DNA of 64,000 bases from Okamejei kenojei (lineage: Eukaryota), in the NCBI GenBank assembly GCA_035221665.1, contig CM069142.1:58280001-58344000 (forward strand), in the 5' to 3' direction. This document shows positions 3,410-51,400 of this stretch, one piece after another; within the stretch, counting starts at the first letter, position 1; each line of letters begins with the position of its first letter. Position numbers: made by a program.

Positions 3410-6400
3410 GCAACATATTATCAGTATATTTTATATTTTGTCAACATATATTGATAAAAATAAATACAGAAAATGCTTCGGCACGGACTGGAAGGGCCGA
3501 GAGGGCCTGTCTCCGTGCTGTAATTGTTATATGGTTATATATGGTTAAATGACTACCCTCTTAGACCACATGCAAGAAATGAATGTTGTCAGCTTGAAAA
3601 ACAAGTCAGGCAGTATCTATATACAAGATCGACACAAAATGCTGGAGTAACTCAGATGGTCAGACAGCGTCGACACCTGAAGAAACAGTTCCTTCCTACA
3701 CTGCATCTATATACACATATTTACTGTACAAAGAACTATATATGTGTGTGCATGTGTGTGTGCTTCAAATTGCATTCTTTGCAAGTAAAGGATGTTTGCT
3801 CAGGTGTTTTAAATGAAAAATGGTATTGAAATTACTTACCACAGGATGGATCAGGCATAGATTCGGTGGAGTCTGGTCGAATAGCTGGAATAGTTGTGGT
3901 AATTATCACTGGTTTGGTGGTAGTGGTTTGGTTGGTGACCTTGCCTCGTATGGCGGTAATGATTGGTTTGTTGGCTGTGGTTGAAGTGACGGTTATGGTG
4001 GTGATGGTTGGTGTGGTGGTCGTGATTGGTGCGATTGTTGCAGAAGTTCTTGGTGTGTTGGTTGTGGAGGAATTGGATGAAGCAATGATTGTGGCAGTGG
4101 TAGTCGTGATGGCTGTAGTGGAAGTGGTAGGTCTGATGGTTGTGGAGGTAGTTGTAGGTCTGATGGTTGTCGTAACTGAGGATGTTCTGGTATTTGGTGT
4201 GGCAGCACTGGTGGTTGCGATTAGTGTGGTCCTTGTGGGTTGTGAGTTTGCTGTAGTAGCTGTAACCGGAGTGGTTTTGTGGGTAATCCTCGATGAGGTT
4301 GGTCTTTTGATTGTCATTGCCATTGTACGTGGTGAGGTAAATGTGCTTGGTATGGCGCTTGCTGTGGTAGCAATTGTGAATGAGTTTGGTATGCTTGATG
4401 AAGTTAACGTTAAGGTTGGTGTGGGAGTAGTCCTTGGTGTGAATGAAGAGTTGCTTGTGGTAAAAGTGGATGGTATATTGATTGGTTTTTGGGATGTGAT
4501 TACAGTTGGAGAAGTTTGTGGTGTAGCCTCAGTCAGAGTTGTTTGGGATATGACCTGTTTGGTAAATGTTTGGGTTGTGTTCTCTCCTGTTCCAGCTTGT
4601 GACGTCATCACTCCTGCAGTAGATTGGGATATGGTCTCTCTTGTTGTACTTTGGGGCTTGATCTTTCCTGCAGTAGTTTGGAATGTGGATTCTTCTTCAG
4701 AACTTTGGGAAATTATTTTTCCTGTTGTAGGTAGGGACATAATCTCTCCTTCAGTAGTTAAGGATGTTATCTCTCCTGCAGTAGAGAGGAACATGATTTC
4801 TCCTGTGGTCGTTGTTGACGTAGACTCTCTTGCAGTACTTTGGTTTGCCGTCTCTCCTGTTGTTCTTCGGGACATTGGCTTTTCCGTCGTAGATTGGGAC
4901 ATTATCGCTCCGGCAGTAGTTTGAGCCATGGTCCATTGTGCAGTAGTTTGAAATGTGGTCTCTCCTGCAGTAGTTAGGGATATGATCCCTTCTATGGTAG
5001 TTTGGGATCTGTTGTCCACTACAACAGTTTGGGAGGAGGATTTGCTTTCAGTACTTTGGGTTATGACTTTTCCTGTTGTACTTTGGGACATGGTGTCTCC
5101 TTTACTAGTTTGGGCTCTGGTCGCTCCTTTAGTAGTTTGGGACATGATCTCTCTCGCAGTGGTTTGGGATGATGTCTGTCCTGTTGTAGGGTGGGATGTG
5201 GTCTCTCCTGCAGACGTTTGGGAGGTGATTTCATTTTCAGTACTTTGGGACATGATTTTTTCTGTTGTAGATTGGGACATGGTCTCTCCTTCAGTAATTA
5301 GGGATGTGGTCTCGCCTGCAGTACTTTGGGACCTGATCTCTACAATGGTAGTTTTTGACATAATCTCTCCTGTAGTCATTTGGAACATTGTCTCTCCTGT
5401 TGTAGTTTGGGTCATCATCTCACCTGTTGCAGTTTGGGACATTGTCCTTCCTGTCGTACTCTGGGATATGGTTTCTCTTTCAGAAGTATTGGGTGTGGTC
5501 TCTCCTGTTGTACTTTGGGACAAAGACTCTCCTACTGTAGTTTGAGACATCATCTCTCCTGCAGTAGTTTGGGCTGTGGTGTCACCTGTTGCAGTTTGGA
5601 ACATTGTTTCTCCTGTAGTAGTTTCAGTTGTGATCTCTCCTGCAGTTGTTTGCGATGTTGTCTCTACTGTAATAGATTGAGACATCATATCTCCTGTTGG
5701 ACTCTGGGACATGGCCTCTCCTGCAATAATTTGGGACGTGGTCTCTCCTGTGGTAGTTGTGGACGTGGATTCTACGTCAGTACTTTGGGAAATTCTTTTT
5801 CCATTTGTAGATTGGGACATGATCACTCCTTCAGTAGTTAGGAATGTGGTCTCTCCTACAGTAGTTTGGGCCGTGGACTCCCCTGTGGTAGTTTTTAATG
5901 TTGTCTCTCCTTCTTGAGTTTGGGCTGTGGTTTCTCCGGCAGTAGTTTGGGCTGTGGTCTTTGTTGCAGTAGTTTGGGACACCATGCGCCCTGTTGTAGT
6001 TTGGGACATAGTCTCATCTGTGATCGTTTGGGATGTTGTCTCTCCTTCAGTAGTTTGGGACACAATCTTTCCATCAGTAGTTTGGGACGATGTTTGTCCT
6101 GTTGTATGCTGTGATGTGATCTTTCCTTCAGTACTTAGAGATGTTGTCTCCACTGTAGTACTTTGGGCCTTGGTCACTTCAGCAGTAGTTTGGGATGTTG
6201 TCTCTTCTCCAGTAGCTTGGGCCGTAGTCTCTCCTGCAACAGTTCTGCGTGTGGTCTCTCCTGGAATAGATTGAGACATTGTATCTCCTGTTGTACTCTG
6301 GGACATGGTCTCTCCTGCAATAGTTTGGACTGTAGTCTTTCCTATTATACTTTGGGAAATCATCTGCCCTGCAGTAGTTTGGGATGAGATCCCCACTGCA

Positions 6401-48400: not shown

Positions 48401-51400
48401 GTTTTGTTGTGGTGCTGGACTCACCTGGTATAGCCTTTGAGGTTGTCACAGCTAGTGTTGTTGATGACAAGATCTCAGACGATGCATTTGGCGAGGTGTT
48501 CTCCGCCAGTCTAGTTGTTGAATTTCTTGCTGTAGTTTTTGTTTGTGATGTGTCTTCTGCAGTGATCGTTTGATTTTTCATACGTGTGGTTACTTTTTCG
48601 GTTGTTGCTTGGCTGTCTGTTCTGAATGTGCTGGAAAAACTCACCGTGGCATAAGTTGTCGTATAATTTGCTCTCACGTCTGCATCTGAATTGCAAGAAG
48701 AAATATATCATATTTATCTGAATAATTTTGGAATTACTCTTATGTCTTTAGCACAATCTCTTTTGCAGAATGTTGCTCACCTTCTTTCCACTGTATAGAA
48801 TATTTTGTAGTTTGAATGTTGTGATTTTGTCTGTGGCTTTATCTGGTATGTAATCTAACCTTTGTTTAAATTGTGCATTGGACACTTGCGGTAACATTAC
48901 TGTATTTATTTATTTTTTTATTTTTTTATTTTTTTTGAGTAACCAAAGACCAGTTTAATTTCATATGCAAGCCAGATAAACAGAAATTATTTAAATTTTT
49001 TTTTGTAAAATATTTTTATTAGAAGTAATTACATATTAGGAAGAGATAATATAAAATCAAAAAAAGGGAAATATTATTTGTCAGATACATTCTTAATATT
49101 TTTAAAATTTACAGTCAATCTTATTTGTACTTCTATATTTTTTATTTTATAACAGTAGGAAATAAAGATAGGTAATAAAAAGATAAAGAGATAAGAAAGA
49201 GATAAATAAAATGAGTGGAATATTAAGCAAGATATTCTTCATTGGAGATAGATTCATGATCTATTGTATATAATTCGTCATCTATTCCTTCATTCAGGCT
49301 TCAGTCATGGTCACGAACCGGACCACCTTAACCCTTTAAATATTCAATAAATGGAGACCATATTCCTCTGAAATGATCTAACCTGTCCATTAGGACAAGT
49401 CTTAATCGTTCCAGATGAAGTGTCTCCGACATTTCTGTAATCCAGATTTTGATTGTAGGGGATATGGGACCTTTCCAAAATCTTAATATTAATTTTTTAC
49501 CAATTATTAAACGATAACCAATAAAAATTATTTGTTGTGTTGTTAGTATCTGATCAGTTTCTAATATTCCGAATATAATTAATTTTGGGTCTGGAATTAA
49601 ATTTGCATTAACTACTTTCGAGATTATCTTAAACATTTCTGTCCATTACTGTTTTTAAATGACTGTAAAGACAGCTCATCAGCTTACCTTTCAGTAGATT
49701 AAAGTAGGCAGTTATCATAGAACATCGAACAGTACGGCACAAATGTTTGTGCCGAACATAATGCCAAGTTAAACTCATCTGCCTGCACGTCACCTCTATT
49801 CTTCCAGTTATAACATTTTATTTCAAGAGCTACTGCAAAGCAATCATTTGCATAATTTATGTGTAAATTCAGCTTTGTGATGAAATGTGATTTCTGAATT
49901 AACACCAACGTACAGGAACATTTCAGTAGATCAGACAGTATCTACAGAGAGAGATGAGTAAATAATTCAAACCCATGGCATTGCACATATTCTCCAATCT
50001 TAAAAGTGTTCATTCACTTTCTCCCTCTCCACAGATAGCACCTGAGCGTCAGAGTATTTCCACCATTTTATGTTTTTATTTCCGGTCCCCATATCTGTTT
50101 GGATCCTAGTTGCTCCTGTCTGCTGCTTTCCACCGTTTCCCTAATGTGCAGTGATCATGGTTCATTCTTGTGGGTAGCAGTTCTCTGCTGTACCTATGTG
50201 ATGTTAGGCAATACCTGGCACACAGAATGAAAATATACTCATTGCATGCGGAAATCCAGCACGTGGATATCCCAGATATTTCTTGCTGCAATTCCTCGAA
50301 TGGTAGCATTATGATTAAGTGGATCCATATAACCATATAACAATTACAGCACGGAGACAGGCCCTCTCGGCCCTTCCAGTCCGTGCCGACCATTTGTTTT
50401 CCCCTAGTCCCATCTACCTGCACTCAGACCATACCCCTCCATTCCCTTCACGTCCATATACCTATCCACTTTACTTTTAAATGTTAAAATCGATCCTGCC
50501 TCCACCACCTCTGCTGGAAGCTCATTCCACACAGCCACCACCCTCTGAGTAAAGAAGTTCCCCCTCACGTTACCCCTAAACTTCTGTCCCTTAATTCTCA
50601 TGTCATGTCCTCTTGTTTGAATCTTCCTTACCCTCAATGGGAAAAGCTTATCCACGTCAACTCTGTCTATCCCTTCCATCATTTTAAAGACCTCAATCAA
50701 GTCCCCCCTTAACCTTCTGCGCTCCAAAGAATAAAGACCTAACTTGTTCAAACCTTTCTCTGTAACATAGTTGCTGGAACCCTGGCAACATTCTAGTAAA
50801 TCTCCTCTGTACTCTCTCTATTTTGTTGACATCCTTCCTATAACTAGGCGACCAAAATTGTACACCATACTCCAGAATTGGTCTTACCAATGCCTTGTAC
50901 AATTTTAACATTACTTCCCCACTCCTATATTCAATGCTCTGATTTATAAAGGCCAGCACACCAAAGGCTTTCTTTACCACCCTATCTACATGCGATTCCA
51001 CCTTCAGGGAACTATGCACAGTTATTTCTAGATCCCTCTGTTCCACAGCATTCCTCAATTCCCTACCATTTACCATGTACGTCCTATTTTGATTTGTCCT
51101 GCCAAGATGTAGCACTTCACACTTATCAGCATTAAACTCCATCTGCCATCTTTCAGCCCACTTTTCCAAATGGCCCAAATCTCTCTGTAGACTTTGAGAA
51201 TCTACTTCATTATCCACAATACCACCTATCTTAGTATCATCTGCATACTTACTTATCCAATTTTCCACCCCATCATCCAGATCATTGATGTACATGACAA
51301 ACAACAGTGGACCCAACACAGATCCCTGAGGCACCCCACTGGTCACCGGCTTCCAACCTGACAAACAGCCATCCACCATTACTCTCTGACATCTCCCATT

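What the first reader, a model, noticed from the sequence alone, without database searches (positions are those of the whole stretch)
3840..48685. A ~44.8-kb single coding exon encoding ~15,000 aa of mucin repeat
Seen: 44,846 bp of continuous T/S-rich coding sequence between a canonical acceptor and donor, with no intron-like stretch and no TE, although the flanking introns are mostly TEs. It has no stop codons except after small indels and in one garbled patch. Established: the largest human coding exons (MUC16 ~21.7 kb, TTN ~17 kb) are less than half this size. Inference: this is an exceptionally large coding exon, giving about 1.5 MDa of apoprotein before O-glycosylation, under selection to stay open.
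Basis: partly seen in the sequence, partly recalled or inferred. Interest (0 to 1): 0.85.

Follow-up and report, generated by a model that had tools for sequence, protein, structure and literature searches.

The report
Giant tethered-mucin repeat exon
A 45-kb stretch on the reverse strand is one huge threonine/serine-rich repeat exon of a cartilaginous-fish membrane mucin; it is real and very large, but of a known kind, and some human MUC12 alleles carry larger ones.

Summary
From an acceptor at 48685 to a donor at 3840 lie 44,846 nt of T/S-rich sequence made of about 1,600 degenerate 27-nt (9-aa) units. It has no TE insert and no stretch that is not mucin-like. It is not one ORF as assembled. 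Five isolated small indels, four of them homopolymer-length changes, and a scrambled ~0.3-kb patch split it into six stop-free segments of 6019, 3087, 478, 260, 1216 and 3984 aa. Each segment is open far beyond chance: 0 stops against ~342 expected, and 696 and 627 in the other two sense frames. The last segment joins in phase to an FN3 exon at 1110-856. That exon is 48-58% identical to annotated shark and ray proteins with a mucin-FN3-SEA-EGF-EGF-SEA-TM layout. The locus is therefore the VNTR exon of an elasmobranch tethered mucin. The breaks sit mostly in the youngest, 95-97% identical duplications and look like assembly errors, so the exact length is uncertain. Transcription, absence of internal splicing and glycosylation were not tested.

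The parts
3840..48685 (-). Giant mucin-repeat exon, 44,846 nt, entered and left in phase 1
   Evidence: Splice motifs. Six stop-free segments. Statistics against chance.
48686..48705 (-). Pyrimidine-rich tract and AG of the proposed acceptor
   Evidence: Read directly: tatttcttcttgcaattcag. The coding frame is closed by a stop at 48708-48710, so the exon cannot start further upstream. Other AGs lie a little way downstream, and use of this one was not tested.
38612..48685 (-). Domain A: about 3,360 aa of degenerate 9-aa units of the type T-P-A-E-T-T-S-T-x, after a short unique start
   Evidence: TRF found 27-nt arrays at 40368-46004. Composition: T 33.5%, S 13.1%, P 7.4%. Self-similarity is mostly 62-66%, with one 87% pair, 42422-43378 against 43475-44410.
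4607..38611 (-). Domain B: about 1,259 copies of a 27-nt unit, consensus M-S-Q-T-T-A-G-E-T. It is proline-poor and Glu/Gln-rich.
   Evidence: TRF: period 27, 1258.8 copies, 61% matches. P is 1.2-1.4%, E about 10%, Q about 9%.
10000..26000 (-). Zone of young higher-order duplications inside domain B (blocks of 1-3 kb)
   Evidence: Megablast self-hits at 86-96% identity. Recomputed over aligned columns only, the best blocks are: 17152-19969 against 22465-25303, 95.7%; 14715-17104 against 20326-22687, 96.9%.
30732..30734 (-). Frame shift +1 (GGG where the unit consensus has GG)
21668..21668 (-). Frame shift +1 (AGGAAGAG against AGGAGAG in the 97% paralogue)
19930..20250 (-). Scrambled patch with many frame changes. 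It is a paralogue of about 14.8-15.6 kb riddled with deletions.
   Evidence: 33 gaps in 321 nt, 278 matches and 29 mismatches. Alignment. A +2 shift (GGGG against GG) sits at its edge, at 19922.
19169..19169 (-). Frame shift: 2 nt missing relative to the 96% paralogue
15693..15693 (-). Frame shift +1 (AAAA against AAA in the 97% paralogue)
3840..4606 (-). Non-repeated T/S/P/I-rich linker ending in the exon's only Cys (codon 3843-3841)
   Evidence: Composition. Cys position. 24 of 45 residues identical to the stingray protein P0003 at the matching place, E 1e-7.
1111..3839 (-). Intron of 2,729 nt, holding the N run 3067-3219, an AT-type microsatellite and a LINE fragment
   Evidence: The N run was left as it is.
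856..1110 (-). Next exon, 255 nt, phase 1-1, encoding one FN3 domain
   Evidence: Splice motifs. 48-58% identity to P0003-P0005, E 2e-18 to 3e-10. Model pLDDT 82.9 with seven strands. Best PDB match is an fn3 domain of PTPRJ, TM 0.86.

Best explanation
This is the central VNTR exon of a type-I transmembrane (tethered) mucin gene of a cartilaginous fish, read on the minus strand. It encodes about 15,000 residues that are 43% Thr+Ser. There are two families of degenerate 9-aa units: about 3,360 aa of the T-P-A-E-T-T-S-T type, then about 11,300 aa of the T-T-A-G-E-T-M-S-Q type. A short conserved linker follows, ending in a Cys.

By homology, the rest of the protein lies beyond the window's start and would be FN3, SEA, two or three EGF domains, a second SEA with the G/SVVV self-cleavage motif, a membrane span and a tail of about 25 aa.

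Inferred mechanism: the repeat is densely O-glycosylated into a stiff, acidic bottle-brush held at the cell surface through the cleaved SEA module, forming a very tall glycocalyx or a shed mucus component.

The array grows and shrinks by unequal recombination. Its centre holds young 1-3-kb duplications and its edges are old and diverged. Selection acts on the frame and on composition, not on individual residues.

The five small frame shifts and the scrambled patch are most likely assembly or consensus errors in the hardest part of the array. The gene is probably intact, but its true length may differ from 44.8 kb.
For: Shown:
- Splice motifs at both ends.
- Two 27-nt repeat families.
- 0 stops in 15,029 in-frame codons against 342 expected, and 696 and 627 in the other sense frames.
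- 279 of 284 anchor spacings are divisible by 3.
- Between young paralogous blocks dN/dS is 0.74-1.28 (3.1 in one pair with only 10 substitutions). About 19 stop-creating substitutions are expected over seven partly overlapping pairs and none is seen.
- T+S is at least 33% in every 100-aa window.
- The last segment's frame runs through the phase-1 donor into the open frame of the FN3 exon.
- The FN3 exon hits P0003 (stingray, 58% over 84 aa), P0004 (basking shark, 51%) and P0005 (sawshark, 48%).
- Those proteins carry a T/S-rich N-terminus, an FN3-like domain, SEA, EGF/EGF_CA, SEA and a TM span. The alignment consensus contains GSVVV.
- The linker is homologous too.
- Of the 12 homologue models examined, several of the seven with a recognisable FN3 start carry 9-aa T-P-E-T-type repeats just upstream of it.
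- The FN3 fold is confirmed.

For the error reading:
- Four of the five isolated shifts are homopolymer-length changes.
- Four of the five lie in the blocks that are 95.7-96.9% identical to each other.
- The patch has one gap per ~10 nt, while the kept pieces match the paralogue.
- Every segment downstream of a shift stays open for up to 3,984 codons.

Inferred, not shown: O-glycosylation, surface tethering, SEA cleavage in this gene, and expression.
Against: - As assembled, translation from the exon start would stop at 30651 after 6,011 codons, and the FN3 and membrane-anchor exons would not be reached.
- Real frame-breaking indels exist in mucin VNTRs. The same preprint found no complete MUC19 ORF in any human long-read haplotype (PMC13345508, passages).
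- No reads were available, so error and real mutation cannot be told apart.
- No upstream exon or signal peptide was found in 15.3 kb of upstream sequence.
- The SEA, EGF and TM exons are outside the window. The architecture is borrowed from homologues that are only 48-58% identical in the one shared exon.
- Domain B has only 1.2-1.4% Pro, unlike classic P/T/S domains.
- All annotated elasmobranch relatives found are short (523-1,126 aa). None turned up among proteins of 1,459-4,165 aa, and longer ones were not searched.
Confidence: 0.7

Rival explanations
1. The frame shifts are real. This copy is a recently inactivated gene or a null allele that makes at most a secreted ~6,000-aa fragment, or nothing.
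For: There are five isolated shifts and one scrambled patch in the sequence as given, and they do not cancel out. Human MUC19 shows that a VNTR exon can lack an intact ORF in all haplotypes (PMC13345508). The family has several tandem paralogues per genome in other species, for example three models on one Heptranchias contig and two neighbouring LOC numbers in Cetorhinus, so loss of one copy would be tolerable.
Against: No segment downstream of a shift has acquired a single stop in up to 3,984 codons, although about 3.5% of random substitutions would create one. Inactivation would therefore have to be very recent. Four of the five shifts are homopolymer-length changes in the most assembly-prone blocks. 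The patch's pattern of dozens of deletions in 0.3 kb is not what mutation normally leaves.
Confidence: 0.15
2. The array is substantially misassembled, either collapsed or falsely duplicated around 14.7-25.3 kb. A giant exon exists, but 44.8 kb and ~15,000 aa are not its true size.
For: Two composite blocks of 5.3-5.6 kb, 95.7-96.9% identical, abut exactly at the scrambled patch: 14715-19969, the patch, then 20326-25303. Four of the five shifts lie in these blocks. The preprint notes that mucin VNTR exons needed manual curation even between human references.
Against: Divergence of 3-4% between the blocks, and further copies at 86-92%, fit real serial duplication better than two haplotypes laid in tandem. 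There is no N gap inside the exon. The outer ~30 kb is too diverged (61-66% between units) to be collapsed or duplicated by an assembler.
Confidence: 0.3
3. The block is not one exon in the mature mRNA. Internal splice sites remove large parts (exitrons or alternative 3' sites), so the protein is much shorter.
For: Chicken and zebrafish Muc13 encode their P/T/S domain in many small exons (PMC1552070, passages). Annotated relatives have short mucin regions of 30-340 aa upstream of FN3. GT and AG dinucleotides are plentiful in 45 kb.
Against: There is no stretch without the coding frame, composition and period. Selection against stops and against indels not divisible by 3 acts along the whole length, which would not be needed for spliced-out sequence. 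At least 4 of the 12 homologue models printed begin inside the repeat without a signal peptide, which suggests truncated predictions.
Confidence: 0.1
4. It is a non-coding minisatellite that merely looks open because of its base composition.
For: Strongly skewed composition and a simple 27-nt period. The antisense strand also shows ORFs of up to 661 aa.
Against: 0 stops against 342 expected from the codon-position composition itself, and 696 and 627 in the other sense frames. 98% of anchor spacings are divisible by 3. Splice motifs sit at both ends, with in-phase continuation into a conserved FN3 exon. The linker is homologous to annotated proteins.
Confidence: 0.01

Closest known systems
Human MUC12 (with MUC3A and MUC17): SEA-type tethered mucins with one giant VNTR exon
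   Same: Type-I membrane mucin. The whole S/T-rich repeat lies in one exon. SEA module with the G/SVVV motif, plus EGF domains and a TM span (seen in the homologues). Human long-read haplotypes give MUC12 proteins of 4,677-23,080 aa, called the largest coding exon of the human genome. In about half of the human mucins studied (MUC12 is not among those named), repeats are more degenerate at the array edges than inside, as here (PMC13345508, passages).
   Different: Domain order in the shark and ray proteins is FN3-SEA-EGF-EGF-SEA-TM, not EGF-SEA-EGF-TM (the latter recalled). No MUC3/12/17 protein appeared among the 26 hits. The unit here is 9 aa, and in domain B it is Pro-poor and Glu/Gln-rich. 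Orthology was not tested.
Human MUC16
   Same: Tethered mucin with an S/T-rich exon of more than 21 kb.
   Different: MUC16's big exon is about half this size and nearly invariant in length in humans. Its C-terminal part is a long series of SEA repeats (recalled), not FN3-SEA-EGF-SEA.
UMODL1 (uromodulin-like 1)
   Same: The only relatives outside elasmobranchs that cover FN3 plus SEA are bird proteins named UMODL1, UROL1 or 'mucin-5AC-like'. They are 35-40% identical over 45-50% of the query and carry Pfam fn3 + SEA. One shark model is itself named 'uromodulin-like 1, partial'.
   Different: Pfam found no ZP or WAP domain in P0003-P0005. A giant mucin domain is not a UMODL1 feature (recalled). 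The names are automatic and inconsistent: mua-3-like, fibrillin-1-like, DAN4-like, jagged-2-like.
Chironomus Balbiani ring genes BR1, BR2.1, BR2.2 and BR6
   Same: Genes of about 40 kb with only four introns, whose central coding region is one tandem-repeat block (PMC4192438, passages). This shows that spliceosomal genes can carry repeat exons of tens of kb.
   Different: These are insect secretory proteins, unrelated in sequence and domains, and not membrane-tethered. Their repeats were not recovered in that assembly, so exact exon sizes are not given in the passages read.

Membership tests
Mucin (working definition of Lang et al. 2006, PMC1552070: a P/T/S domain plus a SEA or VWD domain) | Long domain rich in Thr and Ser | tested here: met
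   T 30.8% and S 12.6% over 14,842 aa. The lowest 100-aa window is 33%.
Mucin (working definition of Lang et al. 2006) | Proline-rich as well (P/T/S) | tested here: inconclusive
   Domain A has 7.4% P and the linker 9.8%, but domain B, three quarters of the exon, has only 1.2-1.4%. The numerical threshold of PTSpred was not in the passages read.
Mucin (working definition of Lang et al. 2006) | SEA or VWD domain in the same protein | not testable with these tools
   The window ends 855 nt past the FN3 exon. Homologues P0003-P0005 have SEA at 39-53 bits against a cut-off of 26.4.
Mucin (working definition of Lang et al. 2006) | Repeat domain encoded by one large exon | tested here: inconclusive
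   Continuous frame, period and composition between one acceptor and one donor. No transcript data, and six ORF pieces as assembled.
Mucin (working definition of Lang et al. 2006) | Dense O-glycosylation | not testable with these tools
   There are 6,445 Ser/Thr candidates. No glycosylation predictor or data was at hand.
MUC3/MUC12/MUC17 subfamily | EGF-SEA-EGF-TM C-terminal module (recalled) and orthology | tested here: not met
   Tested on homologues only. Their order is FN3-SEA-EGF-EGF-SEA-TM. No MUC3/12/17 protein was among the 26 hits.
UMODL1 | FN3 followed by SEA and calcium-binding EGF | tested here: met
   Tested on homologues. Bird UMODL1-named proteins are the nearest relatives outside elasmobranchs. 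Only the FN3 part lies in the window.
UMODL1 | ZP and WAP domains (recalled) | tested here: not met
   Neither was reported by Pfam in P0003, P0004 or P0005 at E <= 0.001.
Fibronectin type III domain (exon 1110-856) | Seven-strand beta sandwich | tested here: met
   Model pLDDT 82.9, pTM 0.73, seven strands. 76 PDB matches at E <= 0.001, the printed ones being fn3 domains or fn3-derived binders (monobodies, adnectins); the best is 2dle, TM 0.86.
Fibronectin type III domain (exon 1110-856) | Pfam fn3 above the curated cut-off | tested here: not met
   The window exon gave only FN3_Tor_3rd, E 0.0025, 18.2 bits against a cut-off of 30. P0005 gave fn3 at 21.3 bits against 25. The bird relatives carry precomputed PF00041.

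The most novel reading that the evidence does not exclude
If spanning reads and full-length cDNA confirm it, this would be an uninterrupted coding exon of about 45 kb, among the largest known in any animal and larger than any I found described outside human MUC12. It would belong to an uncharacterised elasmobranch family of tethered mucins (FN3-SEA-EGF-EGF-SEA-TM, sharing its FN3-SEA module with UMODL1). Its main repeat, about 1,260 copies of a 9-aa unit, is proline-poor and Glu/Gln-rich. That would be an unusual chemistry for a mucin stalk, and the stalk could extend several micrometres from the cell.
Probability: 0.35. Interest if true: 0.55.

Novelty: new member of a known kind. Interest (0 to 1): 0.4.

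Why it matters
Giant VNTR exons are where genome assemblies and gene predictions fail. All 14 elasmobranch relatives found are short models (523-1,126 aa) with contradictory automatic names, and at least four of the 12 examined start inside the repeat.

A curated 45-kb example would do three things:
- It would show that cartilaginous fishes carry tethered mucins on the scale of human MUC12 and MUC16.
- It would give mucin biologists a natural Pro-poor, acidic 9-aa repeat to compare with classic P/T/S domains.
- It would offer a test case for how exon definition and selection on the frame work over tens of kilobases.

It does not change the known upper limit of exon size.

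Tried and rejected
- Sensitive blastn of the exon against itself timed out. It was replaced by megablast.
- Pfam on the first 403 aa and last 422 aa of the exon gave 0 families.
- A word-based search with the FN3 exon for longer proteins gave no hit among 36 candidates.
- In the HMMER scan, 3 of the 6 hits (P0002, P0006, P0007) were dropped. They matched only short stretches and have bacterial-type or unrelated domains.
- The PDB sequence search with P0005 gave 19 matches, all to its EGF stretch and none to SEA or FN3.
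- A search for long forms (1,459-4,165 aa) found no elasmobranch relative, only fibrillins and one duck FN3+SEA protein. Proteins above 4,165 aa were not searched.
- tblastn of 18 homologues against the window (low-complexity filter on) gave 13 matches from 12 queries, all on the FN3 exon. So no upstream exon, signal peptide or SEA exon was found in the window.
- Rfam gave 0 matches in the window.
- Literature searches for shark transmembrane mucins and for giant or longest mucin exons found nothing on this family.
- The spliced model (giant exon joined to the FN3 exon) was not built or searched. Each exon was searched on its own.
The locus could therefore not be compared with other elasmobranch genomes.
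- The preprint's supplementary tables with per-allele MUC12 exon sizes could not be seen.
- The window was not taken for human. All relatives are elasmobranch or bird.

Full report
**What is there.** From about 4 to 48 kb the window has a uniform, strongly skewed composition, with AT skew of -0.34 to -0.41. The long open frames lie on the minus strand. Read on that strand, a pyrimidine-rich tract and an AG precede position 48685. A consensus donor, TGTG|GTAAGT, follows position 3840. The only N run of the window (3067-3219) lies outside the exon, in the next intron. It was left untouched.

**Repeat anatomy.** Tandem Repeats Finder reports one array of 27-nt units, 1,258.8 copies at 61% matches, over 4607-38611. 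It reports a second 27-nt family in four rows over 40368-46004. Translated, the upstream 10 kb (domain A, about 3,360 aa) is a degenerate T-P-A-E-T-T-S-T-x repeat with 7.4% Pro. The following 34 kb (domain B) is a T-T-A-G-E-T-M-S-Q repeat with only 1.2-1.4% Pro and about 10% Glu and 9% Gln. The last 255 aa are a non-repeated T/S/P/I-rich linker that ends in the exon's only cysteine.

Units are old: identity is 61-66% across most of the array. The centre of domain B (about 10-26 kb) holds young duplications of 1-3 kb at 86-96% identity by megablast. Two composite blocks of 5.3-5.6 kb are 95.7-96.9% identical over aligned columns.

**Is it coding, and more than chance?** The frame chain gives 14,842 codons without a stop, leaving out the patch. 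That is 43.4% Thr+Ser, 1.53 MDa and pI 4.1.
- The codon-position base frequencies alone predict 342 stops in the 15,029 in-frame codons counted. None is seen.
- 100 shuffles gave a mean of 699 stops and no ORF above 238 codons.
- The other two sense frames of the same segments hold 696 and 627 stops.
- Spacings between copies of an anchor motif are divisible by 3 in 279 of 284 cases. The five exceptions are all +1. Four other anchors gave 349/360, 368/373, 349/356 and 329/339.
- Between young paralogous blocks dN/dS is 0.74-1.28, and 3.1 in one pair with only 10 substitutions. That is near neutral for residues.
- About 19 stop-creating substitutions would be expected over those seven partly overlapping comparisons, and none is present.

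So selection keeps the frame and the composition, not the residues. That is the usual picture for mucin repeats. A non-coding satellite is excluded.

**It is not one ORF as assembled.** There are six stop-free segments, of 6019, 3087, 478, 260, 1216 and 3984 aa. The isolated breaks are:
- +1 at 30732-30734 (GGG for GG)
- +1 at 21668 (AA for A)
- +2 at 19922 (GGGG for GG)
- -2 at 19169
- +1 at 15693 (AAAA for AAA)

Each was defined against a paralogue or the unit consensus.

Between 19930 and 20250 lies a patch with 33 gaps in 321 nt against its paralogue at about 14.8-15.6 kb. These are mostly deletions of 1-33 nt, and the retained pieces match. This patch is the junction between the two 95.7-96.9% identical blocks.

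Four of the five isolated shifts are homopolymer-length changes, and four of the five lie in those blocks. Every segment downstream of a shift stays open. I read this as consensus or assembly error in the hardest part of the array, which also means the assembled length is not secure. Without reads, a very recent null allele cannot be excluded. Real ORF-breaking indels are reported for human MUC19 (PMC13345508, passages).

**Which gene.** The donor leaves one base (phase 1). The next acceptor, tttcattttcAG|TACCC at 1110, opens a 255-nt phase 1-1 exon ending at 856 before GTAAGT. Its 84 residues were searched alone. The spliced model was not joined or searched.

A HMMER scan of 1.84 billion representatives gave six hits. 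Three are relatives over the full length: P0003 (58%), P0004 (51%) and P0005 (48%). The other three were dropped as partial or unrelated. The relatives are named records from a stingray, the basking shark and a sawshark.

Pfam and the sequences show a T/S-rich repeat, an FN3-like domain, SEA, EGF and calcium-binding EGF, a second SEA with GSVVV or GSVQV, a membrane span and a short tail. Their models have the same Cys|Val-Pro junction as the window. The window's linker matches P0003's linker, with 24 of 45 residues identical, E 1e-7.

A second search found 26 proteins. Fourteen are elasmobranch, of 523-1,126 aa, under contradictory automatic names. Four are bird proteins with fn3 + SEA, two of them named UMODL1 or UROL1. 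Eight match only through EGF.

No long elasmobranch form appeared among proteins of 1,459-4,165 aa, and longer ones were not searched. At least four of the 12 models examined start inside a 9-aa T-P-E-T-type repeat without a signal peptide, which suggests truncated predictions.

The FN3 fold was confirmed. The model has pLDDT 82.9 and seven strands. There are 76 PDB matches at E <= 0.001; those printed are fn3 domains or fn3-derived binders, and the best is a PTPRJ fn3 domain at TM 0.86. Pfam's fn3 model stays below its cut-off.

tblastn of 18 homologues against the window hit only this exon, 13 matches from 12 queries. The SEA, EGF and TM exons and any signal-peptide exon are therefore outside the window or undetected.

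**Flanks.** Non-LTR retrotransposon fragments occur on both sides and in both orientations. Two ORFs match RVT_1 at E 6e-24 and 7e-22. By protein similarity they cover 6,640 of 15,315 nt upstream and 618 of 3,839 nt downstream, and 0 nt of the exon. Rfam found nothing.

**How it most likely works.** Shown: a selected open repeat and in-phase continuation into a conserved FN3 exon of a family with SEA, EGF and TM modules. Inferred: a type-I tethered mucin whose ~15,000-aa stalk is densely O-glycosylated and acidic, held through an autocleaved SEA module. At a recalled 0.2-0.25 nm per residue it would be a few micrometres long. The array evolves by unequal recombination, with a homogenised centre and diverged edges. 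A human mucin pangenome preprint describes the same edge-versus-centre pattern for about half of the mucins it studied.

**Comparison with what is known.** All classic mucins keep their P/T/S domain in one large exon (PMC1552070, passages).

The 2026 medRxiv preprint on 296 long-read genome assemblies reports MUC12 proteins of 4,677-23,080 aa. It calls that VNTR exon the largest coding exon of the human genome, and it gives a longest MUC4 allele of 27,843 bp (PMC13345508, abstract and passages; supplements not seen).

Chironomus Balbiani ring genes of about 40 kb have only four introns around a tandem-repeat core (PMC4192438, passages).

So a 45-kb mucin exon is very large but not unprecedented. 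It is not a member of the MUC3/12/17 group by the domain order of its homologues. It shares only the FN3-SEA-EGF module with UMODL1, and its homologues lack ZP and WAP.

**Verdict.** This is a new member of a known kind: the giant VNTR exon of an uncharacterised elasmobranch tethered-mucin family. Its continuity and exact size await reads and transcripts. My searches found no paper on this family or on shark transmembrane mucins. That covers only the held library.

Noticed in passing
window 3067-3219 and about 3273-3552: The window's only N run (153 N) lies in the intron between the giant exon and the FN3 exon, next to an AT-type microsatellite that reads as IYIYIY in translation. It was not filled or looked up.
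   Followed up: no
window 50404-52094 (-), 52505-52847 (-), 53544-53837 (-), 54695-56911 (+), 58031-58392, 61980-62541 (-), 63818-63999 (-), 539-703 (-), 1255-1715 (+): At least nine fragments of one or two related non-LTR retrotransposon families, in both orientations. Two carry RVT_1 (E 6e-24 and 7e-22). None lies inside the exon.
   Followed up: partly
window 62658-63656 (-): Two adjoining ORFs (175 and 156 aa) with a weak zinc-knuckle match (zf-CCHC, E 0.087). They may be a gag-like remnant of another retroelement.
   Followed up: no
window 1048-1046 (-), residue 21 of the FN3 exon: The window has Phe where the homologues have a nearly invariant Trp (flagged as conserved in at least 90% of the 10 rows in alignment A1). 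The model still folds as FN3.
   Followed up: partly
window 15693, 19169, 19922, 21668, 30732-30734: Between sparse anchor motifs, all five net frame changes go the same way (+1). The +2 at 19922 and the -2 at 19169 cancel over 753 nt. With five events this is not significant (about 1 in 16). It could also reflect a one-sided error mode of the sequencing chemistry.
   Followed up: partly
window 38371-40356 (+) and other plus-strand ORFs of 314-661 aa: Long antisense ORFs (Val/Gly-rich) run opposite the mucin frame. They are a by-product of the biased codons. The three plus-strand frames hold 644-971 stops over the exon.
   Followed up: yes
protein P0013 (Heptranchias perlo model, 1126 aa): The model starts with the C-terminal part of a SEA domain (GSVVV) before its own mucin region and FN3. 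It looks like a fusion of two tandem paralogues. Three family members share one contig in that species, and two neighbouring LOC numbers occur in Cetorhinus. The family probably sits in tandem clusters.
   Followed up: no
window 48685-48683 (-): The exon begins with ATG, but in a frame that stops after three codons. The mucin frame needs one base from an upstream exon. No such exon was found in the 15.3 kb available.
   Followed up: partly
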